32,000 nucleotides of DNA from Planctomycetales bacterium (GTDB lineage: Bacteria > 4484-113 > JAFGCY01), in NCBI GenBank assembly GCA_022646745.1, contig CP060262.1:900001-932000 (forward strand), read 5' to 3'. Position 1 is the first letter of the stretch, and each line of letters starts with the position of its first letter. The translations under genes and the position numbers were made by a program. Below, piece after piece: positions 9,259 to 32,000 of this stretch. A model generated the notes under the pieces. It searched no databases. It worked only from the letters and a program-made list of their open reading frames with translations, and was not told where the DNA came from.

Positions 9259-9307
9259 GAAGAAGTTGTCAGTTCTGAGTTCATAGTGCCATGTTACAGG
9301 TGTGGCG

Positions 9308-9663
9308 GCGCGGCTCGCATGCGCTCGAGTTTATTCGAGGTGGGGTAGCGATCGTTTTGTCAACGCGGAGTCGCGGAGACGCGGAGTAATACAGAGAGCG
9401 GATTAACAGAAAATAGTCCGTAGCGGCGCAGTCCCACTGCGGCAGCACGCGAGTTCTGGCAACAAGGCAAGTTGACACGAGAGAGAGGAATTGCCACCGC
9501 AATTCTCAGTGGCTCAGTGCTACAGTGGTGTATCAGGCGGATTTGCCTACCACTGAGCCACGGAGACACTGAGAAGATGAAGCTTGCCGGGCTCATTGCT
9601 CATTCATCATTGCTCATTGCTTCACAGCATGCTCTCCCAGTCGCACGGAGCGTGCGCCGCTAC
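9308..9663. repeat. Composite repeat, copy 1 (9308-9386 plus 9571-9663), interrupted by a 184-nt insertion (9387-9570)
   Basis: The two halves align to the contiguous copy at 9817-10000. Contains CGCGGAGN x3 (9364-9387) and GCTCATT-type heptamers (9591-9625). Confidence 0.7.
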
Positions 9664-9693
9664 GGATTTCATTTGATGATTCGTGTCTGGAGA

Positions 9694-9722
9694 TTAACCA
9701 CAGAGGCACAGAGCACACAGAG
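9694..9722 (+). repeat. Solo CACAGAG-type cassette arm
   Basis: TTAACCACAGAGGCACAGAGCACACAGAG followed by AATAATGGC (compare AAAATGACAATGGC in the intact cassette). No gene and no partner arm follow. Confidence 0.6.
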
Positions 9723-9816
9723 AATAATGGCTTGAATTCTCCGCGCCTCTCTTCAATCTCCCCGACTCCGCGTTGAAGAGAACCAGCCTGGCGAGCACGT
9801 TGTCACCCGCGCGACT

Positions 9817-10000
9817 GCGCGGCTCGCATGCGCTCGAGTAGATTCGAGCCAAGTATGCGATGTTTTTGTCAACGCGAAGGCGCGAAGACGCGAAGGGAGA
9901 TGAAGTTCGCACGGCTCATTGCTCATTCATCATTGCTCATCCATCATCGCTCATTGCTTCACGGCATGCATTCCCAGTCGCACGGAGCGTGCGCCGCTAC
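9817..10000. repeat. Composite repeat, copy 2 (contiguous)
   Basis: Contains CGCGAAGN x3 (9873-9896) and seven GCTCATT-type heptamers (9914-9962, two more units than copy 1). Shared tail CCCAGTCGCACGGAGCGTGCGCCGCTAC. Confidence 0.7.
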
Positions 10001-12522: not shown

Positions 12523-12539
12523 GCCGCATGGCATGCGGC
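12523..12539. promoter_or_regulatory. 17-nt perfect palindrome in a divergent promoter region
   Basis: GCCGCATG-G-CATGCGGC, lying between divergent starts at 12460 (-) and 12776 (+). Confidence 0.3.
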
Positions 12540-12628
12540 CTGGCGAGCATGGCGGGGTTGTGCAGTCATTGGGCAATGGGCAGAAGCAGAATGAGAATGA
12601 GAAACAGATAAGGTTGCAGCAGCATCAG

Positions 12629-12676
12629 CCTACTGCCTTTGCACACTGCCTACTGGCTACTGACCACTGCCTACTG
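12629..12676. repeat. Heptamer repeats NCYACTG
   Basis: CCTACTG at 12629, then CCTACTG GCTACTG ACCACTG CCTACTG in tandem at 12649-12676. Confidence 0.6.
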
Positions 12677-12685
12677 AACACTTCG

Positions 12686-12704
12686 ATTCCGAAAGGAATA
12701 TTCC
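12686..12704. promoter_or_regulatory. Overlapping dyads ATTCC-GAAA-GGAAT and GGAATATTCC
   Basis: Read directly, about 70 nt upstream of ATG 12776. The perfect 10-nt palindrome is at 12695-12704. Confidence 0.25.
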
Positions 12705-12775
12705 GGTCACGCCATGCCGGTTTTGCTGTAAGATTCCTTTCGCCGCCAGTCAACCAGCGGCCCTTGGGAGTTGCC

Positions 12776-16546: not shown

Positions 16547-18895
16547 CTACTCGGTCTTCAGTCCGAGCCTGAGCAGGTGCAGCTGGTACTCCGACTCTCC
16601 GGCGGTGCTCCTGCTCTCATTCAGTGCATGCACCTGCCCGTCGAACATGACAGCGTGGATGCCGATGTCAAGGAACTGGTTGATGTTGCGGTCCAGCTCA
16701 TTGGGGAACATTTCCCCGTAGGTCCACAGTTCGAACTTCATACTGCCGAACTGCGTCAGCCGTGGCCGCAGCAGCTCGGGCCAGTCCACATCAGCGTTGC
16801 GCAGCAGGATGAGCGGCACGTCATCATCTGCAATCAAAAGGGCCAGGTCGCGCACCCGCTTGTCACTCGTGTCAAGCACCGAATAGTGTTCCCAGCCCGC
16901 ACCTGATTCCGGAATCGCCTCATTGTCCTGCAGCAGGTAGCCGACCTGCACGAGCTCCTCAGTCTCACCATACAGGTATGCTGCCTGGAATCGCTCGTTG
17001 GCAACCAGCACATCCACCGCCTTGGCCGGCGGAGTGCCGAAGAAACCGACGGCGTTGTGGATACTGAAATCAAGGGCTGTTTCCGGGAATGCGTCGTCTG
17101 CAATGAAGAACCGCACTGAGTCATCCGCCAGGTACATGCCGGCCGGCCGGCCATCCAGCTCGGTGAAGTCAAAGGCCAGCGGCAGGCTGCCCTTGGGGGA
17201 GCTCAGGAGTTCCACCACAGTCCAGTCGGATGCCTGCTGGGGATCCGGCACATTTGCATAGGCGTAATAAAGTCCATCAGTGGAGATGTCGATCTGTGCG
17301 GCGAACATAACCGCCAGCCTGCCGTCCACGACCTCCATGCTGAGCATGCTGCCCAGCGGGCTGGATTCATGCACCGGCACCGTGCTGAAGCTGCCCCCGT
17401 CCGTCGGGTTGGCACTGCTGCCCCGTGCCACGTACAGGCCCGGCTCAGCGTGCAGGAAGCTCGCGTTCAGGTATGCGACCCAGGGCCGGCCGCCGAGGTT
17501 GGCAATCTCCGGGTGGCTGGCAACCTGCGTATCCGCCACCTTGACCGAGCTCAGGCCCTCGCCGTTCACAAGGTATTCGATCATCGTATCGGCCTCACTG
17601 TAGACCACGAAGCAGGCCTGTCCCACGGAGGGATCCGCCGGCCCGGCGAGGTTGGAGAAGAACCCGTCGTCAGGGTTGCCACCGATCAGCTGCTCAGCAC
17701 TCCATTCAGCGATGCAGCCTGTCGTGGGTTCGCTTTCGATGCTCGGGCCACTCGGGCCGTTTACAATCGCGGTGTAGCTGTGCGCGCCGGGAATCGGCTC
17801 CAGCGCGTCACTGAAGTCGTCGACGACCACCTGGCCGTTGTTGGTCAGCAGCTCCACGTCATCCAGCACCAGTTCGCCGTTGCGGAACAGGTCAAGCGAT
17901 AAACCGACTGGCACGTCGCTGATCTCAACCTGCAGTTCCACCCTGTCAGTCAGGGCTCGCTGTGTCGTCGTCAGGCGGGGCTGCGGGGTCTGGCGGAAAC
18001 CCACCTTGGGATCGCTGAACCCGCTGGTCTCCAGCCCGGCATTTGCACGGACCCGGTACTCGTAGTGCACGCCGTAATCCGCACCCTTGCCGACGGGGAA
18101 GTCAGCGGAATGTGAGAAGGAGCTGAAACTGCCAACCGGGATATTGATCAGCAGTTCGTAGCTGCTGTCCGGCTGCGCCTCCTCCTTGTAAAACAGGTCG
18201 TAGCTTTCCGCTCCCGGCACCCCGGAGAATGTCATGAAGATGCTGCCTTCGCTCAGGCCCTGGGCTACGAAATCAATGACTGGGATGCCAAGCGCCTGTT
18301 CCAGCCGGAAGTCCAGCTGCTCAATGACGCAGTCGGTGGTTTCCGACCCATCTGCAATCACCGCGATGTACACGTTGCCGGCAGGACTGATGTAGTCCGC
18401 ACCACTGAAGTCACCGCTGAGGTCGACATTCATGGCACTGCCCGGTGCTGTGCGCGTGAACAGCTGCCAGCGACCGGCACTGAAGTCCGCGAAGCCGAAG
18501 AAGTAGCTGGCATTGGTAGTGAGCTCCGACATCACGATGTTGATCTCGCTGAAGGAGACCCCCGGGTCGATGCTGCTGACCTGGTAGATTGCATACTTCA
18601 GGTCATCCGCATCCGCCGGCGTCAGGCGCATGAAGAAGGGGGCTTCCTGCACGCCATTGAAGTCAAAGGCTGAACCGCCGCCGATGGAGAATTCAAGCAG
18701 CACCGAACTTTCCCGGCTGAGGGCTGGATCAACTGGCAGGTCAAGCGGCAGGGCCGGCAGGCCATCGAGCGTGGCTGGTCCAGTGCTGGTGCTGGCCAGG
18801 CTTGTCTCAACCTGCTGCGGGCCATCTGAACCGCAGCCCGCTGCGCAAAGCAGGATGAGCATGAACAAAGGCAGAAAGGAGCTGGTGCGTGCCAT
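16547..18895 (-). CDS. Lipoprotein, family C2 (782 aa)
   Basis: MARTSSFLPLFMLILLCAAGC lipobox, with GGAGAG before the ATG. KYAIYQV and FADFSAGRWQL. LTDRVELQV...LFRNG. Blades LGGRPWVAY, VDGRLAVMF, LDGRPAGMY. TAG at 16547-16549. Confidence 0.9.
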   Translation of the reverse strand: MARTSSFLPLFMLILLCAAGCGSDGPQQVETSLASTSTGPATLDGLPALPLDLPVDPALSRESSVLLEFSIGGGSAFDFNGVQEAPFFMRLTPADADDLKYAIYQVSSIDPGVSFSEINIVMSELTTNASYFFGFADFSAGRWQLFTRTAPGSAMNVDLSGDFSGADYISPAGNVYIAVIADGSETTDCVIEQLDFRLEQALGIPVIDFVAQGLSEGSIFMTFSGVPGAESYDLFYKEEAQPDSSYELLINIPVGSFSSFSHSADFPVGKGADYGVHYEYRVRANAGLETSGFSDPKVGFRQTPQPRLTTTQRALTDRVELQVEISDVPVGLSLDLFRNGELVLDDVELLTNNGQVVVDDFSDALEPIPGAHSYTAIVNGPSGPSIESEPTTGCIAEWSAEQLIGGNPDDGFFSNLAGPADPSVGQACFVVYSEADTMIEYLVNGEGLSSVKVADTQVASHPEIANLGGRPWVAYLNASFLHAEPGLYVARGSSANPTDGGSFSTVPVHESSPLGSMLSMEVVDGRLAVMFAAQIDISTDGLYYAYANVPDPQQASDWTVVELLSSPKGSLPLAFDFTELDGRPAGMYLADDSVRFFIADDAFPETALDFSIHNAVGFFGTPPAKAVDVLVANERFQAAYLYGETEELVQVGYLLQDNEAIPESGAGWEHYSVLDTSDKRVRDLALLIADDDVPLILLRNADVDWPELLRPRLTQFGSMKFELWTYGEMFPNELDRNINQFLDIGIHAVMFDGQVHALNESRSTAGESEYQLHLLRLGLKTE

Positions 18896-21089: not shown

Positions 21090-23453
21090 CTAGAACGGCA
21101 GCTCCTTGGTCTGCACCACGTACTGCACGAAGCGGCGCTCATCACCGGGGTTGTTGTCAAACACATTGCCGGTCATCAGCAGCAGCTCGCCGATCGCCAG
21201 CAGGTTCGGCGGGCCGATGATGTCCTCGTACTCGTTGCTCACATCCAGCTCGAACTCGATCCAGCGCTTGTAATCCAGCCCGCGGCCGGTATCCTCGCCA
21301 AGCGGCACGAACAGGCGCGGATAGCCAATCACACCGTCATTCAGTGCGGCCAGCGGCATGCCGTTGTGGAACAGCAGCGACACTCCCTCCGCACGCTGCC
21401 CGCCGAGGTCCGCGATCAGCGAACCGTACCAGTGGGCGGAGTTGTCCGGATCCGGCACCTGACTGCTGATGCCGGCCAGCAGGCAGTCGGTCTCCCCGTT
21501 GCCAATTCCGGCCACGGCATGCAGCCGGCCCTCGTACACCTGCAAGTCCAGGCTCTGCGTGGTGCCGTAGCTCTGCAGGGTGTCAATCACCAGGTGTTCG
21601 GTCCAGTCATCCGGGCCCTGCGGAGGCAGCACTCCGGCATGCGTGGCGTACAGCCGCGAGGTGCCCTGGATGCCCAGCCCGTACATCACATAGGGCAGGC
21701 CCTGGTAGTCCACCAGGTCGAAGCTCAGCGGCTGCTCCACACCGTCGGCGTAGTACTGCACCTGGCTGAGCTGTACGTCGTCAACATTCCCGTCTGAGGG
21801 GTCGGGGATCCAGCAGAAGTCCATCTCAGAATCGTTGAAGTCAGGGCCGTCCTTGGCGTAGAGGATGCCAATCCCGCCATCGAAGGCGCTCATCGCAATG
21901 TAGTTGGCGTAGACCCGTCCCTCATCCAGCAGGATGGTGTTCCAGTCCTCATCGGCTGTCGGCACCAGCGTGTCCGGCCAGGCCAGGTACAGGCCGACAT
22001 TGGCCAGACCCGCCTCAGCATCGTCGTTGGCGTATGCGATGAACGGCCGGCCCATGTAGTCCAGCGTGGCCATCGCCGCCTCACTGCTCTCCATCGAGAC
22101 CGTGGTGACCTGTTCGACCGCCGGGAAGCCCGCCACGAAGGGGTCCGCATGCAGGAACTCAAGCTCAAGGTCCTCGGAGTCGTAGTAGGCAAAGCCGACC
22201 TGGCGGCCCTCCGGCGGGCCGAATTCAAGCGCGGAGCCGAAGAACTGCGGGTTGCCAAGCGAGGCAATCAGCGAACCGGAGCCGGAATCACCACGGCAGC
22301 CCTTGTCCTTCGGGCCGGGCTCGCTGGAGCCGTTGTCACCATTGATCACGATGTAGTACTCATGTTCCAGCATGTCCGGCACTGTGTCATCCGCCCAGGA
22401 CATGAACTGCTCGAAGCCGGGTGGGATCGAGAGCGGGTCATCGTCGGCGATCTGCACGCCGTCGCGGAACACGTCAACAGTCGCGTTGTCCTCGAAGGTG
22501 ACCGGGAACCACAGCTCGACGCGGTCCGGGAACATGCGGTCCGTTGCCATCATGTAGGTCGGCGCCGGGGTGCGCCGGTAGCCGCTGTCCGTATTGCTGA
22601 ATTCGCTGAAATCACTGCCCATCCGGCCGCGCACGCGGTAGTCGTAGTCAACATCGTAGAGGCAGGGCGGTGCGTCGTCATCATTGTGGTTGACCGTCTG
22701 GCTGCCGCCTTCGACCGTCTTCAGGAGCGTCCAGGCCTCATCGCCCTCGCTGGAGAGCTTGTAGAACACCTGGTACTCCTCCGCATTCGGTGCGAGGTTC
22801 CAGTTGAGCTGCACGCGGTCGCTGTACCAGGCGTCGCTGGCGGTGAAGTTCAACGGCGGCGTCAGGCCGCCATCCGCGCTGACGACGATCTTCTCGATCT
22901 CCGCGGACTGCCCCGCCCCCTGCAGCAGCACTGCCAGGTAGAAGGTGTAACCCGCACTGACATGCCGTGCCGGGTCGAACTGCTCACGCAGCTGGTAGAA
23001 ATCCTGCCCGGGATCGATCGGCACCGAGCTGAAGTCCCAGCGCCCGCTCGAATAGTCCGCCAGGCCAAAGTACAGCGTGCCGGCCTCGCTCTGGGCCTGC
23101 ATGTGCACCTCGAGTGCGGTGACGATCGCGGTAGGGTCCACCCCGCCGAGGCGGTAGATCGCATAGCGGATGCCCTCATCCTCCGGATAGAGCGCATAGG
23201 AAGCCGGGAACAGGATCGTACCGTTGCCGTCGAACACCAGCCCCCCAAGCTGCTCATAGCTGAAGATCGCACTGGCCTCGCGCGCGGCATCCTCACTGAA
23301 TTCATCAAGCGGGATGGCAGGCAGGGCCGACAGCAGGGCCGGTTCCGGCAGCCAGCCGGGGACAGCCAGGCTTTCCGCGTTGTGGCGGGATCCCCCGCAG
23401 GCGCCAATCAGGACCATGCAGGACAGCAGTATCGTGCTCAGGGCGAGTCTCAT
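21090..23453 (-). CDS. Lipoprotein, family C3 (787 aa)
   Basis: Start at ATG 23451-23453 (MRLALSTILLSCMVLIGAC) with GGAG 7 nt upstream. RYAIYRL and LADYSSGRWDF. TASDAWYSDRVQLNW and PDRVELWF...VFRDG. Blades YMGRPFIAY, YEGRLHAVA, HNGMPLAAL. TAG at 21090-21092. Confidence 0.9.
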   Translation of the reverse strand: MRLALSTILLSCMVLIGACGGSRHNAESLAVPGWLPEPALLSALPAIPLDEFSEDAAREASAIFSYEQLGGLVFDGNGTILFPASYALYPEDEGIRYAIYRLGGVDPTAIVTALEVHMQAQSEAGTLYFGLADYSSGRWDFSSVPIDPGQDFYQLREQFDPARHVSAGYTFYLAVLLQGAGQSAEIEKIVVSADGGLTPPLNFTASDAWYSDRVQLNWNLAPNAEEYQVFYKLSSEGDEAWTLLKTVEGGSQTVNHNDDDAPPCLYDVDYDYRVRGRMGSDFSEFSNTDSGYRRTPAPTYMMATDRMFPDRVELWFPVTFEDNATVDVFRDGVQIADDDPLSIPPGFEQFMSWADDTVPDMLEHEYYIVINGDNGSSEPGPKDKGCRGDSGSGSLIASLGNPQFFGSALEFGPPEGRQVGFAYYDSEDLELEFLHADPFVAGFPAVEQVTTVSMESSEAAMATLDYMGRPFIAYANDDAEAGLANVGLYLAWPDTLVPTADEDWNTILLDEGRVYANYIAMSAFDGGIGILYAKDGPDFNDSEMDFCWIPDPSDGNVDDVQLSQVQYYADGVEQPLSFDLVDYQGLPYVMYGLGIQGTSRLYATHAGVLPPQGPDDWTEHLVIDTLQSYGTTQSLDLQVYEGRLHAVAGIGNGETDCLLAGISSQVPDPDNSAHWYGSLIADLGGQRAEGVSLLFHNGMPLAALNDGVIGYPRLFVPLGEDTGRGLDYKRWIEFELDVSNEYEDIIGPPNLLAIGELLLMTGNVFDNNPGDERRFVQYVVQTKELPF

Positions 23454-23534
23454 ATTCACTCCAGAATGCAACATCAGCAGATTGCCCACAGCGCCTCATG
23501 CGCCCGGTGGCCACTTCAGCAGCCTGCTTCAATT

Positions 23535-24719
23535 CTAGCGTGAGTCGGCGTCCTGTGCAGCTGTCGCCGTTCCATCGGCATTGAGCGTGGCCAGCTGCTC
23601 GTCAACCATGCGCGTGGTCAGCTTGCGTGCGCCGTCGTCACCGCAATTGACAACGGCGGCCGCCGCACAGTGCCGGGTATGGCTCAGCACCGTGTGGATG
23701 TAGAAGGTGCCGGCGCTGCCGTCATGCGTGGAGATCCGTTCATGCAGCGGGCCCTGCGGGGTTTCGACGTCGCGCTCCAGCACGATCCAGCCGCAGGCGT
23801 AATGCCCGCTGGGCTCATGCAGGAAGGCGAAACTATCCGCGCTGAGCAGGCTGGGGCTGCCGGACAGGCCGTCGATATGCAGCTGCAGGAACTTCGCGTA
23901 CTCGCCGAGCGGCATGCTCAGGTCACCGGCCGGCGCGATCTCCGGCGGCATGGAGTAGCCCTGCAGGCGGCCATAGGGGAACACCTTGCTGCCGCGGATG
24001 GTGTAGCCGGTCGGCTCTGCCGCGTCGTGGTCCAGCGGCCAGCCCAGCTGCACCTGCATCCCGAGCGGATCAAACAGCCGCTGCTGCATCAGCTCCTCCC
24101 AGGACTGCCCGCTGCGCTCCTCGGCCATCGCACTGGCAACGCAGTATCCGGCATTGCTGTAGAGGTACAGCCCACGCCGGCCGGCTGGCTCCTGCGCCAG
24201 CAGCCACTGCGCGAAGGACAGCCGGCGCTCGCGGCTGCCGCCCTCCCGCTCAGGCACGGCCTTCCACTCGGAGCCGGCTGTGAAGGCCTGGATCCCGCTG
24301 CGGTGCGTGAGCAGCTCATGCAGGCTGGCTTCGCGCATCGCCTCATTGAAGGTGGCGGACTGCTCCGGCCAGACCTCGCTTACCGTGGTGTCCCAGTCGA
24401 GCAGGCCTTCCTCAACGAGCGCCGCGATCATCGTGGCGGTCATCGCCTTGGTGTTGGAACCGATGTGGAAGTAGCTGTCCGCCGTGACCTGGACCGCACT
24501 GTCCTTTGCCAACGGTCCCTTGACTGAAATTTCCGCTGCCCCATTGGCCAGCAGCAGGCTGCCGATTGCCAGGCTGTCCGCATCGAGCTGCAGCTCAGCA
24601 GCACGGGTGCTGATGCTGGCAACAACCAGCACCACGACACTGAGCGTGATGATCGCCGGCCACAGCCAGCGCGGCCGCTTGCGCCTGCGTCCACTGCTAT
24701 CCACTGCCTGGTCCATCAC
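23535..24719 (-). CDS. Membrane-anchored serine hydrolase, beta-lactamase/transpeptidase-like fold (394 aa)
   Basis: N-terminal TM WLWPAIITLSVVVLVVASI. S-x-x-K reads as S-N-T-K (HIGSNTKAMT). Y-x-N reads as YSNAGY. GTG 24719 or ATG 24716 as start. TAG at 23535-23537. Confidence 0.9.
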   Translation of the reverse strand: MMDQAVDSSGRRRKRPRWLWPAIITLSVVVLVVASISTRAAELQLDADSLAIGSLLLANGAAEISVKGPLAKDSAVQVTADSYFHIGSNTKAMTATMIAALVEEGLLDWDTTVSEVWPEQSATFNEAMREASLHELLTHRSGIQAFTAGSEWKAVPEREGGSRERRLSFAQWLLAQEPAGRRGLYLYSNAGYCVASAMAEERSGQSWEELMQQRLFDPLGMQVQLGWPLDHDAAEPTGYTIRGSKVFPYGRLQGYSMPPEIAPAGDLSMPLGEYAKFLQLHIDGLSGSPSLLSADSFAFLHEPSGHYACGWIVLERDVETPQGPLHERISTHDGSAGTFYIHTVLSHTRHCAAAAVVNCGDDGARKLTTRMVDEQLATLNADGTATAAQDADSR

Positions 24720-24761
24720 TCCAGCATAGCGCCGGACTTGAGCTGCCTGCTGCAGCGGGCA

Positions 24762-27137
24762 CTAATCCAGCGGGCTGAGCTGGATCCAGTCCAGGCGCAG
24801 CAGCTGGCGGTCGGCTCCCCCGTCGTAGGTGCTGTTGGACAGCACGGCAATGCCGCCGTTGACCTCGACGATGCTGACCGCCTCTGGGCAGCCGGTGATG
24901 TGGTCGCCGGGGTAGCCGGCCTTGAAGCCCGTGAACAGGATGTCATTCACACCGGAGTGGATCTCCGGGTTACGGCGGCCGAGCCAGGCATCCGGCAGGC
25001 GGTAGGGCAGCATCAGCAGCGCGGCATCCTCCGCCGTGCTGGAGCGGGCGTAGACCGGCTTGCCGGCGACTGATGACAGCGCAAGATGCGTCACGCCGTG
25101 GTCCAGGATGTTGTCAGCGAAGAACTCCTCCCAGTCGCTGAAGATCGCCGGGAAGGGGCTGGTGGCGCGGTACAGCTTGGTGATCACGTAGACCTTGCCG
25201 CTCTCCTTCACCATGCAGGCCAGCTGCAGTTCGCCATCCAGCACCTGCAGGCCGATGTCCGCCAGCATGTCACGCACGTGGGTGGTCTGCACCTGGTGTG
25301 AGACCCAGTCCTGCGAACCCACCGGACTGAGGTCTGTGGAGAACATGCAATGGGCCGCCAGCAGGTTGCCACCGGGCAGCTGGTTGTCAAAGGCGATTGC
25401 GATCCGGCCGTTGTACTCAGCCATTGCGAAGTTGTGCGGCACGTATTCGCCCTGGGCAAGCACCACGATGTCGCTGACCGTCCAGCTGCCACCGACCCCA
25501 AGTGGGCCGGAGCGCTGCGCCAGGCGCCAGCTGGTCTGCTTGGTGTTGGCGTTGTAGTGCATGTAGCTCACAGCCGGGCGGCCATCGATGATGGCGAAGG
25601 CCAGGTCTCCGGTGGGCTTGATCAGTTCTATGGTCTCAACGATCCAGTCCTCATCCGACTCAGGCAGCGCCTTTGTGGAGAAGGCCATGTACACACCCTG
25701 GTCCAGCACGGTTCCTCCGCTGTTCTCCCAGGCCACGGCAGGCAGCCCGTTCTGTTCCAGCACCACGCTGTCACTGGGCAGAGTGGCCCAGTCGATGCGG
25801 CTGAGGGGCGAATAACCGGTCAGGCTGCCGGGCAGGGCGCGGAACATCAGGGCATTGTTGCCCGTGTCGTTGTATGCGATGCCGAGCGTATCGTTGGCAA
25901 TCAGGGCCATCCCGCCGTGGAACAGCTCGCCGGCCGGTGCCTCAAGGATGTCGCTGCCATCGCGGTTGCCTCGGAAGCCCGTATCGCTGGCAGGCACAAG
26001 GCCGGTCTCACCTGCCTCATAGGCGTAGACGTCGTAGGCGTGCGCGGCGTAGTCAGTCACGGTGTAGTCGTAGTAGGTGAAGATGCCATATTGATTGGTC
26101 AGGATCACTTCATCCTCGATTTCCTCTCCATCACGGTAGATGCTGAAGCGCGCATTATGCCCAAATCCGGCCTCGGGCCAGTGTAGCTCCACGTGGTCCT
26201 CATGCAGGCCATCGCTGGCATCCATCCAGAGCGGGGTTGGCAGCGAGGCGAAGCCCGTGTCCGGCAGGGAATAGGGCGACCAGTGCCCATCTAGGGTGTA
26301 GCGCATGCGGTATTCGTAGATCACGCCGGGCACGCAGGGCACCGGGGACAGCGAGTTGTGCAGGTAGCTGTACTCACCCTTGGTTTCATACAGCAGGGCA
26401 AACTGGCTGCCCTCCACCGTTGTGTCACGGAACTCGACCTGCACCGGGCTGACCGGGAAGTCCAGGTCCTCCCAGCGCAGCTGCACTGAGTATGGGCTGC
26501 CACCGTCCGCCGCCCGGAACCAACCGGGGGCCGGCGGCGCGTCCGAGTCATTGCTGACAACCACGTTGTCAACCGTCAGCCCGGAGCCGCTGCCACGCAT
26601 GAGGATGGCGATGTAGACATTGAATGCCGGGCTGAGGTTGCGCCCGAGGTCCACGAAGCCCTGCATGTTGAATACATAGGGATCACCGGACTGCACAGTG
26701 CGATGGAAGTCCCAGCGGCCGCTGGCATAGTCGGCGACCGCGAAGTAGATGTCCTGGCCGGGCTGCTGCTGGCTGAGCACGAATTCCAGCTTGCCGATCT
26801 CCGCATCCGGATGGATGCCCGGCAGGCGGTAGACCACGAAGCGGCTGTCATCCGCATTGACCGGCTGCAGCAGCAGGCTGTGGTCCTTGTTCTCCACTCC
26901 ATTGGTGAGGAAGCAGTCGCGCCCTTCCAGCAGGTAGCCGAAGGTCTCGCTGGCATTGCGCAGCGCTTCATCGGAGAACACATCCTGCGGAATGGCACCG
27001 AGGCTGTCAGCCTGCGGCAGGCCTCCAGTGGTGTTGTCAACAGGCTGCAGCGGGCTGCTGCCGGAACCGTTGCCGGAACATGAAGCGGCCAGCACTGTCA
27101 GCATGGCCAGGCAGGAAAGAAGAATCACACGTTGCAT
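24762..27137 (-). CDS. Lipoprotein, family C4 (791 aa)
   Basis: ATG 27135-27137 (MQRVILLSCLAMLTVLAASC) with GGGGGA 6 nt upstream. RFVVYRL and VADYASGRWDF. DASDGLHEDHVELHW...IYRDG. Blades QNGLPAVAW, IDGRPAVSY, YNGRIAIAF. TAG at 24762-24764. Confidence 0.9.
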   Translation of the reverse strand: MQRVILLSCLAMLTVLAASCSGNGSGSSPLQPVDNTTGGLPQADSLGAIPQDVFSDEALRNASETFGYLLEGRDCFLTNGVENKDHSLLLQPVNADDSRFVVYRLPGIHPDAEIGKLEFVLSQQQPGQDIYFAVADYASGRWDFHRTVQSGDPYVFNMQGFVDLGRNLSPAFNVYIAILMRGSGSGLTVDNVVVSNDSDAPPAPGWFRAADGGSPYSVQLRWEDLDFPVSPVQVEFRDTTVEGSQFALLYETKGEYSYLHNSLSPVPCVPGVIYEYRMRYTLDGHWSPYSLPDTGFASLPTPLWMDASDGLHEDHVELHWPEAGFGHNARFSIYRDGEEIEDEVILTNQYGIFTYYDYTVTDYAAHAYDVYAYEAGETGLVPASDTGFRGNRDGSDILEAPAGELFHGGMALIANDTLGIAYNDTGNNALMFRALPGSLTGYSPLSRIDWATLPSDSVVLEQNGLPAVAWENSGGTVLDQGVYMAFSTKALPESDEDWIVETIELIKPTGDLAFAIIDGRPAVSYMHYNANTKQTSWRLAQRSGPLGVGGSWTVSDIVVLAQGEYVPHNFAMAEYNGRIAIAFDNQLPGGNLLAAHCMFSTDLSPVGSQDWVSHQVQTTHVRDMLADIGLQVLDGELQLACMVKESGKVYVITKLYRATSPFPAIFSDWEEFFADNILDHGVTHLALSSVAGKPVYARSSTAEDAALLMLPYRLPDAWLGRRNPEIHSGVNDILFTGFKAGYPGDHITGCPEAVSIVEVNGGIAVLSNSTYDGGADRQLLRLDWIQLSPLD

Positions 27138-27169
27138 CACACGTCCCCCAATAGAAAGGTGATAGCTGG

Positions 27170-27198
27170 ATTGTAACCCGCCGGGCCGCTGTTGTCGA
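27170..27198 (-). promoter_or_regulatory. Candidate sigma70-type promoter for 24762-27137
   Basis: On the minus strand: TCGACA (27193-27198), 17-nt spacer, TACAAT (27170-27175). Confidence 0.4.
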
Positions 27199-27276
27199 GG
27201 TAATCACTTGCAAGCCAATCCGGATGATCAATGCTACCTACGGGCGAAACAGCCGGAACACTTCCAGCCCTTGGGG

Positions 27277-28710
27277 CTATTGATCAATGCCCTGATGGTA
27301 GTTGCGCTCATCGTACTGCCCGATGTGGTAGCCGCGCAGCTTCTCCAGGAAGGGCTCGAAATGCAGTTCGCTGAACCTGCGCCGGGCACTGTAGTACTCT
27401 GCCAGCGCCGGATAGCGGTGCTGCGGGTACTTCCAGCTCCAGCGGCGCAGTACGCCAAGTTCAGGCTCCTCGAAGCAGCCGTTCGAGTACATCCGCCAGG
27501 CCAGCGGCTTGAATTCATTCTGGCGGTAGCTGTACTTCAGCTCCGGGTTGCCCTCCAGCCAGCCGACATACAGCTCATACCAGGCATCGGGATGCTCGAA
27601 GCGGGCCTGCTCCTGCCACTGCAGCTGCGCGGCCAGCGCCCCGTCCAGCAGGCCGGACTGGTAGTACAGCTGCTGGCGGCCCGGCCCATCTAAGCCATCG
27701 CCGGCGTCCACCGTCATGATCTGCAGGGCTACATTTGCCAGCAGGCAGCCGTGGCTGATCTCCGTGATGCTGCCGGTGTTCACCGGGCGCAGGGCGAACT
27801 GGTAGCAGGCGTCGAATGAGCGTTCCATGCCGATGTCGGGGCTGACAACAAGCAGCTCCTTCATCACATCCTTCATCTCGAGGTAACTCCAGTTGTCAAA
27901 CACGAGGTGCTGCTGCACCTCGAGGATGCTGCCGGCGAGGATCGGGTTGCCAATGTCACCGCTGGCCAGGCGCGGCTCGATGAATGACAGCGGGAATGGC
28001 AGGCGCGGCTGGCAGGGCAGCTGGTTGGCCTGCTCCAGCAGTTCCACCAGTTCGCTGTCAACTCCGTATGTGCTGAGCGCGATGAACTTGTCGTAGTACG
28101 GCCAGGCGCTGCCGGGATTGGCGGCGATGGCACTGTCCAGCAGCTCCAGCTGGTCCTGCTCAAGGGCCCGGTTGCGGTCAATTGAGTCCTGCCGGCCACT
28201 GGCCTGCTCCAGCAGGTGCGAATGGTGGCGGTACATGCTCGTGTATCTGTGGACCGCCAGCAGGTCGAGCAGGTGACCGTCGGCAACGCCTGTATCGAGG
28301 GCCGTCGCCAGGTGCTGCACCGCCGGGTCCGAGAGATAGCTGTCGGCGGGCTCTGGCTGGTCCCTGTTGTACAGCCTCCGCGGCAGCCTCCCTGCAAGTG
28401 CCGCCTCATTGAAATAGCGCAGTTCCCAGTAGCGCGGGTCCTCACCGAAGTCCTGCTCCCAGCTTGCGAGCACGCCGTCGTCAATCGCGCAGTACAGGCG
28501 GGAGGGAGGCCGGTCAGTGCGCAGGGTCAGGCTGGCTATCCCCACGCCCCAGCGCTTCCTGGCCAGCCAGGCTGACTGGTAGCGGTCGTACAGTGCATCG
28601 CCGGTCGGCACCACGCGGGTGATCCACAACAGGCGCATCAGTGGCAGGAGGAGGAGCAGGGCCAGCAGGACCTGCAGCAGGCGGCGATGGCGACGGATGA
28701 AGTCCTTCAC
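27277..28710 (-). CDS. Membrane-anchored helical protein, family D3 (477 aa), function unknown
   Basis: GTG start at 28708-28710 overlaps the upstream TGA (GTGA). TM LLQVLLALLLLLPLM. Shares TGDALYDRYQ, DPRYWELR, FPLSF...GNPILAGSIL and MKDVMKEL with 30016-31350 and 29211-30029. Confidence 0.8.
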   Translation of the reverse strand: MKDFIRRHRRLLQVLLALLLLLPLMRLLWITRVVPTGDALYDRYQSAWLARKRWGVGIASLTLRTDRPPSRLYCAIDDGVLASWEQDFGEDPRYWELRYFNEAALAGRLPRRLYNRDQPEPADSYLSDPAVQHLATALDTGVADGHLLDLLAVHRYTSMYRHHSHLLEQASGRQDSIDRNRALEQDQLELLDSAIAANPGSAWPYYDKFIALSTYGVDSELVELLEQANQLPCQPRLPFPLSFIEPRLASGDIGNPILAGSILEVQQHLVFDNWSYLEMKDVMKELLVVSPDIGMERSFDACYQFALRPVNTGSITEISHGCLLANVALQIMTVDAGDGLDGPGRQQLYYQSGLLDGALAAQLQWQEQARFEHPDAWYELYVGWLEGNPELKYSYRQNEFKPLAWRMYSNGCFEEPELGVLRRWSWKYPQHRYPALAEYYSARRRFSELHFEPFLEKLRGYHIGQYDERNYHQGIDQ

Positions 28711-29141
28711 TCCGCAGGCTCCATCCCCACGTACAGCTCCGGGTGCTCGAAGTCGAATGTGGCGAGGTGCCGGAGCATCTGCCGGCAGCGTGGCACTTCG
28801 TTGTCAAGCAACCAGCGGTTGAGCGCGTACTCCTGTTCATAGCGGCCATACATCGACAGGTCGTTTATCTGGCCCAGCAGGATGCCGATTCCCTCCGCCA
28901 GACCGACCTCTGGATATGGTTCTTCCGGTACCCAGGGATAGAGTTCTGCATCATGCAGTATCGCCCAGTACTGGTTGTCCGCAAGGTACTGCGCCAGATC
29001 GGGGTCACTGGCCGCAAGCCGCGCATGAATTCCCTCGCAGTACCCGTCAAGCCGCTCAAAGTCCTCAAGCAAGCGCGAATAGCCCTGCGGGCGGGACTGA
29101 TCCTGCCAGATGGACAGATCGGCAAGCACCACCCGGGACAT
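28707..29141 (-). CDS. C-terminal fragment of interrupted family D2 paralog (144 aa if expressed from ATG 29141)
   Basis: Aligns to the C-terminal third of 30016-31350 (GIHARLAASDPDLAQYL, EYALNRWLLDNEVPRCRQML, HLATFDFEHPELYVGM). In the same frame as 29211-30029. No SD before ATG 29141. Confidence 0.6.
   Translation of the reverse strand: MSRVVLADLSIWQDQSRPQGYSRLLEDFERLDGYCEGIHARLAASDPDLAQYLADNQYWAILHDAELYPWVPEEPYPEVGLAEGIGILLGQINDLSMYGRYEQEYALNRWLLDNEVPRCRQMLRHLATFDFEHPELYVGMEPAE
28721..28769. repeat. 49-nt tract identical to 30033-30081
   Basis: CCATCCCCACGTACAGCTCCGGGTGCTCGAAGTCGAATGTGGCGAGGTG is present at both sites. Flanking paralogous sequence is only about three-quarters identical by eye. 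Confidence 0.9.
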
Positions 29142-29210
29142 GATGTTGGCAATCTGCGGCGTGCAGCAGAGCCAGGCTGTCCCTGCGGATTCCCGCTGGC
29201 GAAGCTCGCA

Positions 29211-30029
29211 CTACGAAAGGACCGTCATTGCCTCCATCAGGTCCACATCCGCACCGGCAATCAGCTCCTTGTACCGGTCCTTGAAGGTGAGGTACTCGTA
29301 GATCCCGCCGTCAGACAGCATGCTGCCTGTTGCCAGGATCGAACCGGCCACTGCCGGGTTGCCGACCGGATCGCCTGCCAGCATCCGCCGGCGCACGAAG
29401 GAAAGTGGGTACAGGTCCACAGCTGCCGAGGCCGACAGGCTGTCGCTCCTGCGCATCATATCCAGCCAGCGCTGGTCCATTCCGTACAGGGCCAGGTGGA
29501 TGGCTGCCTCGGAATACACCCAGCGGCTTTCGGGAAAGCGTGCAGCATAACTGGAGGTCAGCTCATCCGTGCGCGCATCCTCATCGCTGGCGGACAGCGT
29601 TGCGTCGGCACGGATGTCACGCAGCTCCCGGCCCAGCAGCTCGCGTGCCGCAGCGGGGCCGGCGTCAGCGCATTCCAATGCACGCCGCAGGGTTGGCCGG
29701 TCAGGCAGCCTGCTGCCATTTGCTGCGGCAGCCACAACGGCACGCAGTTCCCAGTAGTCACTGCGCTGGCCGAACTCCGGCTCCCAGGCTTCGACTGCAT
29801 TCAGCGAGGGAGCCCATAGCCAGACCATGTTGCCGGCCCAGGTGGGCTCACCTGAATAGAGGTCGTCACGGTGCTCGTCCAGCACCGCCTGCTGCAGGCG
29901 GTCATACAGCGGGTCACCGGTCGGGATTGGCTCACCGGGCAGCTGCGCAAAGGCGACTGCCGGCCTAAGCAGCATGGCAAGCAGAGTGAGCACCGTTGCC
30001 AGAATCCGCATGAGCTTAGTTTTCATCAT
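29211..30029 (-). CDS. N-terminal fragment of interrupted family D2 paralog (272 aa, ends at in-frame TAG 29211-29213)
   Basis: ATGATG at 30024-30029 overlaps the upstream gene by 14 nt. Signal peptide MMKTKLMRILATVLTLLAMLLRPAVAFA. TGDPLYDRLQ, SDYWELR, ECADAGP, YPLSF...GNPAVAGSIL and FKDRYKEL match the 30016-31350 product. Confidence 0.65.
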   Translation of the reverse strand: MMKTKLMRILATVLTLLAMLLRPAVAFAQLPGEPIPTGDPLYDRLQQAVLDEHRDDLYSGEPTWAGNMVWLWAPSLNAVEAWEPEFGQRSDYWELRAVVAAAANGSRLPDRPTLRRALECADAGPAAARELLGRELRDIRADATLSASDEDARTDELTSSYAARFPESRWVYSEAAIHLALYGMDQRWLDMMRRSDSLSASAAVDLYPLSFVRRRMLAGDPVGNPAVAGSILATGSMLSDGGIYEYLTFKDRYKELIAGADVDLMEAMTVLS

Positions 30030-31350
30030 CAGCCATCCCCACGTACAGCTCCGGGTGCTCGAAGTCGAATGTGGCGAGGTGTTCCAGCATCTCCCTGCAG
30101 CGCGGCATTTCGTTGTCAATCAGATAGTGGTTGAGGGCGTATTCATCCAGAGCCTGTTGCTTGAGCAGGTTGCCATTACTTTGGCTTCCCGCCAGTGCCA
30201 TATAGTCCTGCAATTCAGCTGCTGCGTTGCTGGCTGAAGCACCCCGCAGGTTGTACCAGGTGAAGGCCTCGTTCATGTACGCTGCGAGCCGTGGATCATA
30301 CGCAGCGACACGGGCGTGTATGCCCGAACGCCATGCATCGTAGGCCTGCCAGTCCGCCAGCCAGGCCTGCATTCCCTTTACCTGTAGGCTGCCTGGCTCC
30401 CAGTCCGTATGAAGAACCACGATTTCCGACAGAACCTCCTGCAATACTATCGGTGCCGTCAACTGCAGGGGATCATCGCTGTCAATCCGCGGGCGCAGTT
30501 CCCGCCGCATCAGAGCTGACAATGCCCGGGCCATGCCCAGTTCACTGCCCGCCAGCTCAAGTTCCTTGTATATGTCCTTGAGGCGATTATGGTTGCCATA
30601 TTCATAAGTGCTCTGGTAGCTTCGCAGCATTAGCAGTGATCCAGCGATCATTGGATCCAACACCGGTCCAGCTGGGGATCCAGCCCCGACCGCGATCGCC
30701 AGGGGGAACAGCTCGCCACTCGCCAGACCATCCAGCGAGTTTCCTCGTTCCAGCATTTCGACATACTGCGCATCCAGGCCATACCAGCTGAGGTGGTCTG
30801 CTGCGATGTAGCAGATGGCGGCATTGTCAGGCAGACGCGTGCGGTAGCGCTCGATGATCTCCGCCGTGGCAGCATCTTCCTGCCAGGCATCAAGCTCCAG
30901 CGATTCATCGTAACGGATTGCGTGCAGTTCCAGCTTCATTGCGCGTGCCAGCACCTCAGGACCGGCATCATTGCATTCCGTTGCCCGCTGCAGGAAACCA
31001 GCCTCACTGCCCTGCTCATCGACACCGAGCCTGGCCAGACTGGCCCGCAGGCACCAGTAGTCGCTGCGCCCGCTGAATTCGGCTTCCCAGCTGATGACTG
31101 TTTTTAGGTCAGGAGCCCAGGGCCACTGGGACGTCCCCATCAGGTTGGCGAATCTGTCATGTACTGGCTGGCAGCTGGCGGCCAGCACCGCCCGCTGCAT
31201 GCGGTCGATTAAGGGATCCCCGCTGGGCTGAATCCTTTGCTGCGAGCGCAGCAGGAAACCACCGAAGATGATCAGGCTGAGGATGCCGCCCAGAACCAGC
31301 AAGGCGAGTGCGATCCACCTGCCTGTCCTGCCTGTCTGGATCTGCTTCAT
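30016..31350 (-). CDS. Membrane-anchored helical protein, family D1 (444 aa), function unknown
   Basis: ATG 31348-31350 with GGGGGA upstream. TM WIALALLVLGGILSLIIFGGFLL. Full-length template for the split D2 pair. TAA at 30016-30018. Confidence 0.85.
   Translation of the reverse strand: MKQIQTGRTGRWIALALLVLGGILSLIIFGGFLLRSQQRIQPSGDPLIDRMQRAVLAASCQPVHDRFANLMGTSQWPWAPDLKTVISWEAEFSGRSDYWCLRASLARLGVDEQGSEAGFLQRATECNDAGPEVLARAMKLELHAIRYDESLELDAWQEDAATAEIIERYRTRLPDNAAICYIAADHLSWYGLDAQYVEMLERGNSLDGLASGELFPLAIAVGAGSPAGPVLDPMIAGSLLMLRSYQSTYEYGNHNRLKDIYKELELAGSELGMARALSALMRRELRPRIDSDDPLQLTAPIVLQEVLSEIVVLHTDWEPGSLQVKGMQAWLADWQAYDAWRSGIHARVAAYDPRLAAYMNEAFTWYNLRGASASNAAAELQDYMALAGSQSNGNLLKQQALDEYALNHYLIDNEMPRCREMLEHLATFDFEHPELYVGMADDEN
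30033..30081. repeat. 49-nt tract identical to 28721-28769
   Basis: See 28721-28769. Both copies encode HLATFDFEHPELYVGM and sit immediately upstream of the next gene's start codon. Confidence 0.9.
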
Positions 31351-31359
31351 GTCGTCCCC

Positions 31360-31375
31360 CGGGGCAGCTGCCCCG
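31360..31375. promoter_or_regulatory. Perfect 16-nt palindrome 10 nt upstream of the D1 start codon
   Basis: CGGGGCAGCTGCCCCG, adjacent to and overlapping the GGGGGA RBS of the minus-strand gene. Confidence 0.3.
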
Positions 31376-31477
31376 CATACCTATTATTACATTGCCTCGC
31401 GGACAGCAGTTTCATGACACCGCATGTCACCTTCTTCCGCCCCTGCGGCACACACCACCCGCGCCGGCAGGGTTAGG

Positions 31478-31489
31478 ATTTCATGAAAT
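31478..31489. promoter_or_regulatory. Perfect 12-nt palindrome upstream of the 31511 gene
   Basis: ATTTCATGAAAT, 22 nt before GTG 31511. Confidence 0.25.
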
Positions 31490-31510
31490 TGCGATTACGG
31501 AGTCTGCACA

Positions 31511-32000
31511 GTGCTGAATGCCATCCGTCCCGCCGCGCTTGCGGCCATGTCCATGTGCGTGCTGCTGTCCGCATCCTGTGCGGGAAACGGGAACCGCCCG
31601 GCGCAGTCGCTGCAGCAGGCCCAGCAGCCGGCTGCCGGGCAGGCGGGTACACCCGAGGCCGGTCAACCTGATCCGGCATTTTCCCTGCCCTCCCTGAACA
31701 GCCTGAAGCTGGAGAATGCGCCCGTACGCAGCGGCTCATATGTGGATTCCGACCTGCTGCATGAGGGGGTGGAGTATGAAGCGGGCCTGCCGCATTCACA
31801 TGTGACGCAGGACGGGGCATCACTGATGTTCTCCCCCGACCTGTCGAACCCGGGCAATCCCGGCATCGCATACGCAATCTACCGCTACACGGTGCCGGAC
31901 TATGACCGCGCGCCGGAATTCCGCATCACATACGACCAGACCTTCGAATTCAGCAACTTCTGGCTGGCGCTGGCAAACTGGGAAACGCGGCGTTGGGACC
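31511..32000 (+). CDS. Lipoprotein with the shared N-module (family B/C member, 3' end beyond window)
   Basis: Not in the supplied ORF track because it has no stop in the window. GTG 31511 preceded by ACGGAG at 8 nt. VLNAIRPAALAAMSMCVLLSASC lipobox. Hand translation gives AYAIYRY and LALANWETRRWD. Open to nt 32000. Confidence 0.8.
   Translation, partial: MLNAIRPAALAAMSMCVLLSASCAGNGNRPAQSLQQAQQPAAGQAGTPEAGQPDPAFSLPSLNSLKLENAPVRSGSYVDSDLLHEGVEYEAGLPHSHVTQDGASLMFSPDLSNPGNPGIAYAIYRYTVPDYDRAPEFRITYDQTFEFSNFWLALANWETRRWD

What the first reader, a model, noticed from the sequence alone, without database searches (positions are those of the whole stretch)
27277..31350. Three tandem, translationally coupled paralogs of an unrecognised membrane-anchored helical protein, flanked on both sides by family-C lipoprotein genes
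D1 (444 aa), D2 (split) and D3 (477 aa) each have one N-terminal TM segment or signal peptide. Conserved landmarks follow: [ST]GD[PA]L[YI]DR.Q just after the anchor, SWE..F....[DR]YWELR, EC.DAGP, FPL[SA]...G[ND]P[AI][VL]AGSIL, [FLM]KD.[YM]KEL, and in D1/D2 a C-terminal EYALN..L.DNE.PRC...L.HLATFDFEHPELYVGM. Gene junctions overlap by 14 nt (30016-30029) and by GTGA (28707-28710), which implies stoichiometric co-expression. The block lies between divergent C5 and downstream C4. I cannot assign a family or function. The context suggests an inner-membrane partner (sorting, assembly, sensing or anti-sigma-like) for the lipoprotein repertoire.
Basis: partly seen in the sequence, partly recalled or inferred. 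Interest (0 to 1): 0.65.

Follow-up and report, generated by a model that had tools for sequence, protein, structure and literature searches.

The report
Tandem exported TPR-like proteins, function unknown
Three neighbouring genes in an uncultured (UBP7-like) bacterium encode related, exported all-helical TPR-like proteins from a rare, unannotated family. The cluster here is a cut-down, recombined version of a larger one in relatives, and nothing ties it specifically to the neighbouring lipoproteins.

Summary
D1 (30016-31350), D2 (28707-30029, broken by an in-frame TAG at 29211-29213) and D3 (27277-28710) are real minus-strand paralogs. They are under purifying selection, each has one N-terminal export segment, and they overlap as described.

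They belong to a rare, uncurated family: 176 clusters among 1.84 billion representatives, all unnamed or 'hypothetical'. A confident AlphaFold model of D3 (pLDDT 86) is all-helical. It has one canonical TPR repeat and no PDB or viral fold neighbour.

Relatives revise the picture in four ways:
- The ancestral cluster is D1-D2-D3'-E-D3, where E is a polymorphic secreted protein of about 760 aa.
- The window's D3 is a D3'::D3 deletion chimera, and E is absent here.
- The D2 stop is a segregating allele. D2 is an intact 440 aa in sister assemblies.
- The window is a recombinant whose breakpoint lies at the D2/D3 junction.

The GTGA overlap between a D1/2-type gene and a D3-type gene is conserved in five loci.

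Distant family members sit alone in unrelated housekeeping contexts, without C-type lipoproteins, so the 'lipoprotein partner' idea is unsupported. The anti-sigma idea is excluded because there is no cytoplasmic domain.

Best reading: periplasmic, membrane-tethered TPR-like binding scaffolds whose ligand is unknown. Interest is modest.

The parts
30016..31350 (-). D1, 444 aa: N-terminal signal-anchor plus an exported all-helical domain; D1/2-type C-terminal motif HLATFDFEHPELY
   Evidence: ORF. Hydrophobic segment at aa 13-34. AF2 model is all-helical, pLDDT 68. dN/dS 0.20 against L036.
29211..30029 (-). D2 N-terminal fragment (272 aa from ATG 30029; the conserved alternative start, ATG 30011, gives MRIL…). 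Sec-type signal peptide ending AFA|Q. Ends at the premature TAG.
29211..29213 (-). In-frame TAG that interrupts D2. This is a segregating nonsense allele; intact alleles carry AGC (Ser) here.
   Evidence: TAG in the window, L001, L002 and L037. AGC in L036 and L040-L043, where D2 is one ORF (440 aa in L036). Orthologs in L005/L006 are intact. D3 also ends in TAG, so TAG is an ordinary stop here.
28707..29141 (-). D2 C-terminal fragment (144 aa from the first ATG), in frame with the N-terminal fragment; carries the D1/2-type C-terminal motif
   Evidence: 56-59% identical to the C-termini of intact D2 orthologs.
27277..28710 (-). D3, 477 aa, signal-anchor plus TPR-like helical domain. A chimera: codons 1 to about 28 derive from paralog D3', the rest from D3.
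   Evidence: Alignment A4. AF2 pLDDT 86.4, pTM 0.87. dN/dS 0.16 against L001. The identical protein occurs on 11 contigs.
28627..28710 (-). D3'-derived 5' end of D3. It is the deletion/recombination junction that removed the D3' body and gene E, and it is also the strain-level recombination breakpoint.
   Evidence: Window 28718-32000 is 100% identical to L001, while 22409-28635 is 94.7% identical. L001 carries about 2.5 kb extra here, including E. The reverse pattern is seen against L036/L038.
28707..28710 (-). GTGA overlap of the D2 stop with the D3 start
   Evidence: The same overlap occurs in L036, L005, L006 and L004.
30016..30029 (-). D1/D2 junction: a 14-nt overlap if D2 starts at 30029, or a 4-nt gap if it starts at the conserved ATG 30011
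28721..28832 (.). 112-nt direct repeat (copy 1), the 3' end of D2
   Evidence: 87% identical to 30033-30144.
30033..30144 (.). 112-nt direct repeat (copy 2), the 3' end of D1
24762..27140 (-). Downstream neighbour: C-family lipoprotein, 792 aa (context, not part of the D unit)
   Evidence: A promoter-like site of its own at 27170-27198.
31511..32000 (+). Upstream divergent neighbour: 5' end of a 714-aa PKD lipoprotein (context)

Best explanation
D1, D2 and D3 are paralogous extracytoplasmic proteins. D1 and D3 are tethered to the inner membrane by an uncleaved N-terminal anchor. D2 is released by signal peptidase.

Their roughly 400-residue domain is an all-helical, TPR-like solenoid containing one canonical TPR repeat. 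They belong to a rare, uncurated family found in uncultured bacteria (relatives include MAGs labelled UBP7 and 4484-113 and one labelled Planctomycetales), where it is usually a single stand-alone gene.

In the UBP7-like lineage the family split into a D1/2-type (C-terminal HLATFDFEHPE motif) and a D3-type. These two types are translated as a coupled pair, with a conserved GTGA stop/start overlap.

Inferred, not shown: they act as periplasmic protein- or peptide-binding scaffolds or chaperones, possibly as a D1/2-type:D3-type heteromer. In relatives their nearest candidate client is the co-encoded polymorphic secreted protein E.

The window carries a reduced, recombined version of the ancestral D1-D2-D3'-E-D3 cluster. 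E and most of D3' were deleted by D3'/D3 recombination, and D2 carries a segregating nonsense allele.
For: Shown:
- Paralogy.
- Purifying selection, dN/dS 0.16-0.43.
- A single N-terminal hydrophobic segment in D1-D3 and in 135 of 142 full-length family members.
- A family of 176 clusters at E<=1e-3, named only 'hypothetical protein' or unnamed.
- An all-helical AF2 model of D3, pLDDT 86.4, pTM 0.87.
- The family profile hits a consensus TPR, E=6e-5, at one repeat, and Pfam TPR models hit up to 5 of 60 members.
- The best Foldseek matches are TPR arrays.
- The ancestral cluster, an intact D2 and E are present in L005, L006, L004, L003 and L001.
- The D3 chimera.
- The D2 TAG is polymorphic.
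- The GTGA overlap is conserved in 5 loci.
- The strains are mosaics.
Against: - There is no significant structural neighbour: Foldseek E>=0.057 and TM<=0.30. 'TPR-like' therefore rests on one repeat plus the general helical-repeat appearance.
- No ligand, partner or biochemical activity was observed.
- E is absent from the window and from L036, yet D1-D3 remain under constraint, so E cannot be the only client.
- Family-wide invariant acidic and Asn residues (D38, D42, E85, D91, N229 in D3) could instead mark an active site.
- No conserved neighbour was found across the wider family.
Confidence: 0.5

Rival explanations
1. One reading: D proteins are dedicated inner-membrane partners (sorting, assembly or quality control) for the neighbouring C or N-module lipoprotein repertoire.
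For: In the window the block lies between a C lipoprotein and a divergent PKD lipoprotein with the N-module. That divergent PKD lipoprotein is syntenic in L001, L005, L006 and L036. One distant locus (L009) has a neighbour that matches the C middle domain, E=1e-26.
Against: Full-length C proteins occur only in the window's species among all fetched loci. L003 and L004 have D genes with no C or N-module neighbour. About 25 distant loci have none. C5 has its own promoter-like site and a 136-bp spacer. Exported dockerin-like or PKD proteins are not enriched near D: 9 of 123 genes within three genes of D, against 6 of 144 farther away.
Confidence: 0.1
2. The cluster is a diversifying, recombination-prone interaction locus (self/non-self recognition, an immunity-like array, or a phage- or predator-facing envelope module). 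In this reading the D paralogs are cognate binders or neutralisers of the polymorphic secreted protein E.
For: E has two allele classes about 41% identical, with near-identical termini. Between L005 and L006, D2 and E are far more diverged (dN 0.36 and 0.52) than the flanking D1, D3' and D3 (dN 0.03-0.06). D1 is 38% identical between species whose HD gene is 91% identical. Also consistent: tandem paralogs, chimeras, a null allele and strain-level recombination at the locus.
Against: D2 and E allele types do not co-vary: the window/L001 D2 is closer to L006's although its E is L005-like. Polymorphic toxins vary at the C-terminus, whereas E's termini are its conserved parts. There are no PADLOC hits. 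Distant family members are single genes in housekeeping contexts. dN/dS is below 0.55 everywhere.
Confidence: 0.12
3. D is an all-alpha periplasmic enzyme (for example a glycan- or peptidoglycan-acting lyase or hydrolase), not a scaffold.
For: Family-wide near-invariant acidic and polar residues: TGDxLxD, WExxFGxDPRYW, and GN…PFP.
Against: A confident model has no fold match to any all-alpha enzyme in the PDB. The only sequence and structure signals are TPR.
Confidence: 0.08
4. D is an anti-sigma-like or transmembrane signalling sensor.
For: A single-pass membrane topology with a large extracytoplasmic domain.
Against: The N-terminal cytoplasmic tails are only about 8-12 residues, and D2 has a cleavable signal peptide. 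None of the D proteins or the large ORFs scanned has a zf-HC2, RskA or sigma-factor Pfam hit.
Confidence: 0.02

Closest known systems
Generic TPR / consensus-TPR helical-repeat scaffolds (e.g. CTPR proteins, MamA)
   Same: All-helical repeat architecture. The family profile matches one canonical 34-residue TPR, E=6e-5. Pfam TPR_16/17/19 models hit a few family members. The top Foldseek hits are TPR arrays.
   Different: Only one recognisable TPR. The overall fold has no significant PDB match (TM<=0.30). D1-D3 themselves hit no Pfam TPR model. The family has its own conserved motifs (PTGDxLxDRY, WExxFGxDPRYWELR, GN..P….PFP) that are not TPR features.
E. coli YfgM (partner of PpiD at the SecYEG translocon)
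   Same: An N-terminal single transmembrane anchor followed by a periplasmic TPR-like helical domain, working as part of a hetero-complex in export and chaperoning (PMC9643414, found). This is the best architectural analogue for 'how it may work'.
   Different: YfgM is much shorter (about 200 aa, from my own knowledge). No sequence or fold similarity was detected: there are no Pfam hits at all for D1-D3, and YfgM/PpiD did not appear among the listed Foldseek matches. No PpiD-like gene adjoins the cluster.
Periplasmic TPR chaperones of cytochrome c maturation (CcmI/NrfG type)
   Same: Membrane-anchored proteins with a periplasmic TPR domain that binds a client peptide (my own knowledge, not tested here).
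   Different: No ccm or nrf genes are nearby, and no sequence or fold match was found.

Membership tests
TPR superfamily | Sequence match to the 34-residue TPR consensus | tested here: inconclusive
   The family profile matches CTPR390 at E=6e-5 over one repeat (profile positions 166-214, roughly D3 aa 190-235). Pfam TPR models hit up to 5 of 60 members but not D1, D2 or D3.
TPR superfamily | Tandem array (3 or more) of helix-turn-helix repeats forming a superhelix, with structural similarity to solved TPR domains | tested here: inconclusive
   The AF2 model is all-helical. The best Foldseek hit is an 8-repeat CTPR, E=0.057, TM 0.19/0.30. Nothing reaches E<=0.001.
YfgM-like (anchored periplasmic TPR-like co-chaperone) | N-terminal transmembrane anchor plus a periplasmic helical domain | tested here: met
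   One N-terminal hydrophobic segment with a positively charged N-tail. This is a by-eye and Kyte-Doolittle assessment, not a dedicated predictor.
YfgM-like (anchored periplasmic TPR-like co-chaperone) | Sequence membership in the curated YfgM-type Pfam/NCBIfam model | tested here: not met
   No Pfam or NCBIfam hit for D1-D3. Among 60-67 family members only generic TPR models are hit, and only in a few.
YfgM-like (anchored periplasmic TPR-like co-chaperone) | Complex with PpiD and SecYEG | not testable with these tools
   Needs co-purification or complex prediction.
Anti-sigma factors (single-pass, zf-HC2/RskA type) | Cytoplasmic N-terminal sigma-binding domain and an adjacent ECF sigma gene | tested here: not met
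   Only 8-12 residues precede the hydrophobic segment. No such Pfam domains occur in the D proteins or in the large ORFs scanned.
Polymorphic-toxin immunity arrays | Immunity genes immediately downstream of a toxin with a variable C-terminal domain, with co-varying pairs | tested here: not met
   E varies in its middle and has conserved termini. D and E allele types do not co-vary. The window has no E. No PADLOC hits.

The most novel reading that the evidence does not exclude
The D1/2-type and D3-type proteins form a membrane-tethered periplasmic heteromer. It is the receptor or handler of the polymorphic secreted protein E. The whole D-E locus is a recombination-driven diversifying envelope module (recognition or defence) specific to UBP7-like bacteria, built on a previously undescribed helical fold family.
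Probability: 0.1. Interest if true: 0.6.

Novelty: new member of a known kind. Interest (0 to 1): 0.3.

Why it matters
It defines a coherent, uncurated family of exported TPR-like proteins: about 176 clusters at 50% identity, with no Pfam, NCBIfam or PDB counterpart. A confident structural model and diagnostic motifs are now available, so the family could be curated as a new DUF.

It also shows how a locus read from a single genome can mislead. The 'three coupled paralogs' are a strain-specific remnant of a five-gene cluster, carrying a deletion chimera, a segregating null allele and a recombination breakpoint.

Biologically it is a modest lead into envelope biology of an uncultured phylum. 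It does not answer any open question.

Tried and rejected
- Curated libraries: Pfam, NCBIfam, PADLOC and PHROGs on D1, D2a, D2b and D3 gave nothing. The only hit was a sub-threshold STI1 DP match on D2b. Pfam and NCBIfam run on 60-67 family members gave only sporadic TPR models.
- PDB by sequence: only single-repeat TPR matches.
- Foldseek: the D1 model (pLDDT 68) and the D3 model (pLDDT 86) were searched against the PDB, and the D3 model also against BFVD. No hit reached E<=0.001.
- The word-indexed homolog search recovered only 4-8 relatives, even when given an alignment.
- Stop-codon recoding for the D2 TAG: rejected. D3 ends in TAG, and intact alleles carry Ser at this position.
- Misassembly as the cause of the D2/D3 junction: rejected. 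The junction is collinear in NCBI, ENA and Logan assemblies.
- A conserved operon partner across the wide family: none found.
- Enrichment of dockerin-like or PKD exported proteins near D: not significant.
- An E homolog inside the window: none. E against Pfam and the PDB: nothing.
- The promoter/terminator scan found no more sites than the shuffled controls.
- No tRNA or Rfam elements in the window.
Full report
**1. What is in the sequence**

Four ORFs occupy the minus strand of 27277-31350: 30016-31350 (D1, 444 aa), 29211-30029 (D2 N-part, 272 aa), 28707-29141 (D2 C-part, 144 aa) and 27277-28710 (D3, 477 aa).

Translating 28707-30032 in one frame shows that the two D2 parts are in frame. They are separated only by a TAG at 29211-29213, not by a frameshift.

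The paralogy is real:
- D1/D2a: 37% identity, E=5e-40.
- D1/D2b: 46% identity, E=5e-26.
- D1/D3: 26% over 314 aa, E=5e-12.
- D3/D2a: 29% identity, E=2e-16.

In orthologs, however, the only conserved D2 start is the MRIL… ATG (window 30011), which lies 4 nt after the D1 stop. The 14-nt overlap is therefore not certain.

Each protein has one strongly hydrophobic N-terminal segment. D2's ends in a typical signal-peptidase I site (AVAFA|Q). D1 and D3 have basic N-tails and no such site, so they read as signal anchors with the helical domain outside the cytoplasm.

**2. Are they genes?**

Yes. Between strains, dN/dS is 0.16 for D3 (window vs L001), 0.20 for D1 and 0.21 for D2 (window vs L036). These values are similar to the neighbouring beta-lactamase-family gene, at 0.17.

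**3. What family?**

Curated libraries contain nothing. Pfam, NCBIfam, PADLOC and PHROGs are all negative for D1-D3.

The word-indexed search of 5.8 billion proteins found only three non-self relatives of D1. An exhaustive HMMER profile search of 1.84 billion cluster representatives found 176 at E<=1e-3, of which 75 were at E<=1e-10.

- These proteins are 420-610 aa long. The sources give them no name or call them 'hypothetical protein [bacterium]'.
- 135 of 142 full-length members have a single N-terminal hydrophobic segment.
- Some carry an extra 60-150 residues between the signal peptide and the first conserved motif. The conserved domain is therefore exported, not merely membrane-proximal.
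- Family-wide near-invariant motifs are PTGDxLxDRY, WExxFGxDPRYWELR, a canonical TPR (P[DG]xAWxYYxRA…G…A…L…GN), a PFP loop, and a C-terminal L..[FY][DH][FY]…P element.
- The HLATFDFEHPE C-terminus of D1/D2 occurs in only 6 of 155 retrieved proteins. D3's IGxYDER ending occurs in 4. D1/2-type and D3-type are thus lineage-specific subtypes.
- D3-type is closer to the family consensus: 300-324 bits against 160-200 bits for D1/2-type.

**4. Structure**

With 7 sequences, the D1 model was mediocre (pLDDT 68). With the 67-sequence alignment, the D3 model is confident (pLDDT 86.4, pTM 0.87) and entirely helical, with about 25 helices.

Foldseek against the PDB gave no hit at E<=0.001. The best was an 8-repeat consensus TPR at E=0.057 with TM 0.19/0.30. 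BFVD likewise gave nothing.

The family profile matches consensus TPR proteins over exactly one repeat, E=6e-5. Pfam TPR models hit up to 5 of 60 members, and NCBIfam gives only three sporadic TPR hits.

Conclusion: a TPR-containing, TPR-like helical-repeat fold with no close solved relative.

**5. Relatives rewrite the local anatomy**

The window's species is represented by several independent assemblies. L036 (GCA_020440665.1, JAGRNS01) is 97.9% identical to the window and collinear over 10.7 kb. The nearest other species are MAGs labelled UBP7 HKST-UBA03 (L005) and AC1.30 (L006).

In L005 and L006 the cluster reads as follows:
- a divergent PKD lipoprotein,
- D1,
- D2 (one intact ORF, 53-62% identical to D2a and 56-59% identical to D2b),
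- D3' (480 aa),
- E (758-763 aa, secreted, with no Pfam or PDB hit),
- D3.

Other relatives show shorter versions:
- L004 (labelled 4484-113): D1-type, D3-type, E.
- L003: D1-type, E, beta-lactamase-family gene.
- L001, another strain of the window's species: D1, D2 (TAG), E, D3.

The window and L036 have no E.

Alignment A4 shows that window D3 residues 1 to about 28 match the D3' N-terminus of L005/L006 almost exactly. The remainder is 93% identical to L001's D3. The window's D3 is therefore a D3'::D3 chimera. It was produced by a deletion between the conserved TRVxPTGDALYDRYQSA regions, which removed the body of D3' together with E. The GTGA 'coupling' between D2 and D3 is inherited from the ancestral D2/D3' junction.

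That same GTGA overlap of a D1/2-type stop with a D3-type start is present in the window, L036, L005, L006 and L004. This is the best evidence here for a functional D1/2-type:D3-type pair.

**6. The D2 stop**

The TAG haplotype occurs in the window, L001, L002 and L037. In L036 and L040-L043 the codon is AGC (Ser), and D2 is a single ORF, 440 aa in L036. Orthologs have Glu or Arg at this position.

TAG also terminates D3, so it is an ordinary stop in this organism. D2 is therefore a recent, segregating nonsense or split allele, not a family feature. Oddly, it differs from the intact allele by three consecutive bases.

**7. A recombining, fast-evolving locus**

The window is 100% identical to L001 across D1-D2 (28718-32000) but only 94.7% identical across D3-C-bla. 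Against L036/L038 it is 100% identical across D3-C-bla, while D1 and D2 differ (dS about 0.1). The window haplotype is thus a recombinant whose breakpoint lies at the D2/D3 junction.

Between the window species and L005, amino-acid identity varies widely by gene:

| Gene | Identity |
|---|---|
| HD-domain gene | 91% |
| D3 | 60% |
| D1 | 38% |
| E | 76% (41% to L006's allele) |

Between L005 and L006, D1, D3' and D3 have dS of 0.12-0.22. D2 and E have dS of 0.84-0.99 and dN of 0.36-0.52. E falls into two allele classes with near-identical termini.

D1 and D2 also share a 112-nt direct repeat at 87% identity at their 3' ends, although overall they are only 39% identical at the amino-acid level. 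This suggests gene conversion, and the repeat is a substrate for further deletions.

**8. Testing the lipoprotein-partner idea**

An HMM built from the four roughly 790-aa C paralogs of the window finds full-length C proteins only in the window's own species. It finds only a weak N-module match (E about 1e-6) in the divergent PKD lipoprotein of L005/L006, nothing in L003 or L004, and one partial middle-domain match in a distant locus, L009.

I fetched 25 metagenomic loci, 2 distant genomic loci (L007 and L008) and 2 further contigs (L034 and L035). In these:
- D homologs are mostly single genes.
- Tandem pairs occur in L017, L020 and L034.
- The neighbours are heterogeneous. Judged by eye from their N-terminal sequences, they include ribonucleotide reductase, PheT, EF-Ts and ThyX. 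By Pfam, they include an MscS channel and polysaccharide-synthesis genes.

A dockerin-like module recurs in exported neighbours, but it is not enriched near D: 9 of 123 genes within three genes of D carry it, against 6 of 144 farther away.

The anti-sigma idea fails on the absence of any cytoplasmic domain. The downstream C gene has a 136-bp spacer and a -35/-10-like site of its own at 27170-27198, although the scan as a whole is not above chance.

**9. Most likely mechanism**

Shown:
- The proteins are exported or anchored, all-helical and TPR-containing.
- They are paralogous and under purifying selection.
- D1/2-type and D3-type genes are pairwise coupled by a conserved overlap.

Inferred: they act as periplasmic protein- or peptide-binding scaffolds, possibly as a heteromer. 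The closest analogy is the anchored TPR-like YfgM, which works with PpiD at the Sec translocon (PMC9643414). In relatives, E is the nearest candidate client.

Because D1-D3 stay constrained in E-less strains, E cannot be the only client.

Rivals I considered are a diversifying recognition or immunity-like module, an all-alpha enzyme, and a lipoprotein-specific helper. They are listed with their tests in the Rival explanations section.

**10. Verdict**

This is a new, uncurated family of a known general kind, exported TPR-like scaffolds. In this window it is caught in a reduced, recombinant state. Interest is modest. The locus dynamics and the missing partner E are the most informative additions.

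Noticed in passing
L001:12726-14984 (also L003:11444-13753, L004:2980-5322, L005:14120-16396, L006:14081-16348); absent from the window: Gene E encodes a 750-780-aa secreted protein with no Pfam or PDB match and an internal INGxxYxYPxDF duplication. It follows the D genes in every related species but is deleted in the window. It has two allele classes about 41% identical, with near-identical N- and C-termini.
   Followed up: partly
window 28635-28718 (breakpoint); arms 22409-28635 and 28718-32000: The window haplotype is a mosaic. Its left arm (D1-D2) is 100% identical to strain L001. Its right arm (D3-C-bla) is 100% identical to L036/L038. Each arm is about 5% diverged from the other strain.
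   Followed up: yes
window 29211-29213: The D2 nonsense allele differs from the intact allele by three consecutive bases (AGC to TAG), plus one further base 10 nt upstream. This is an unusual multi-nucleotide route to a stop codon, and it is seen in four independent assemblies.
   Followed up: partly
window 28721-28832 and 30033-30144: A 112-nt direct repeat at 87% identity forms the 3' ends of D2 and D1, although the two genes are only about 39% identical at the amino-acid level overall. This suggests gene conversion and provides a substrate for deletion.
   Followed up: partly
window 10103-12460, 16547-18895, 21090-23489, 24762-27140 (all minus strand): Four paralogous lipoproteins of about 790 aa (family C, 24-31% identical to each other), with no Pfam domain. 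Among all fetched loci, full-length copies were found only in this species. A 1159-aa protein in L009 shares their middle domain (E=1e-26), alongside fn3 and PQQ-propeller domains.
   Followed up: partly
window 12533-16540 (+), aa 268-345 of the product: The 1335-aa PKD-repeat protein carries a dockerin-like two-loop module (GDYDQNSEVNVADL … DGDRNGELNIADL) that Pfam does not call. The same module is common in exported proteins of the related loci, but it is not enriched next to D genes.
   Followed up: partly
window 37-948 (+) and 23535-24719 (-): Two serine beta-lactamase/transpeptidase-family (PF00144) genes. The second is syntenic with the D cluster in L001, L003 and L036.
   Followed up: no
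window 27170-27198 (-): A sigma-70-like -35/-10 pair (TCGACA-17-TACAAT) lies just upstream of the C lipoprotein gene. This suggests the gene is transcribed separately from the D genes. The scan count overall is no higher than in shuffled controls.
   Followed up: no
window 6001-7000 and 9001-10000: Local GC dips (0.55-0.58 against about 0.62 elsewhere). The first coincides with a stretch (about 6430-7390) that has no ORF of 150 aa or more.
   Followed up: no
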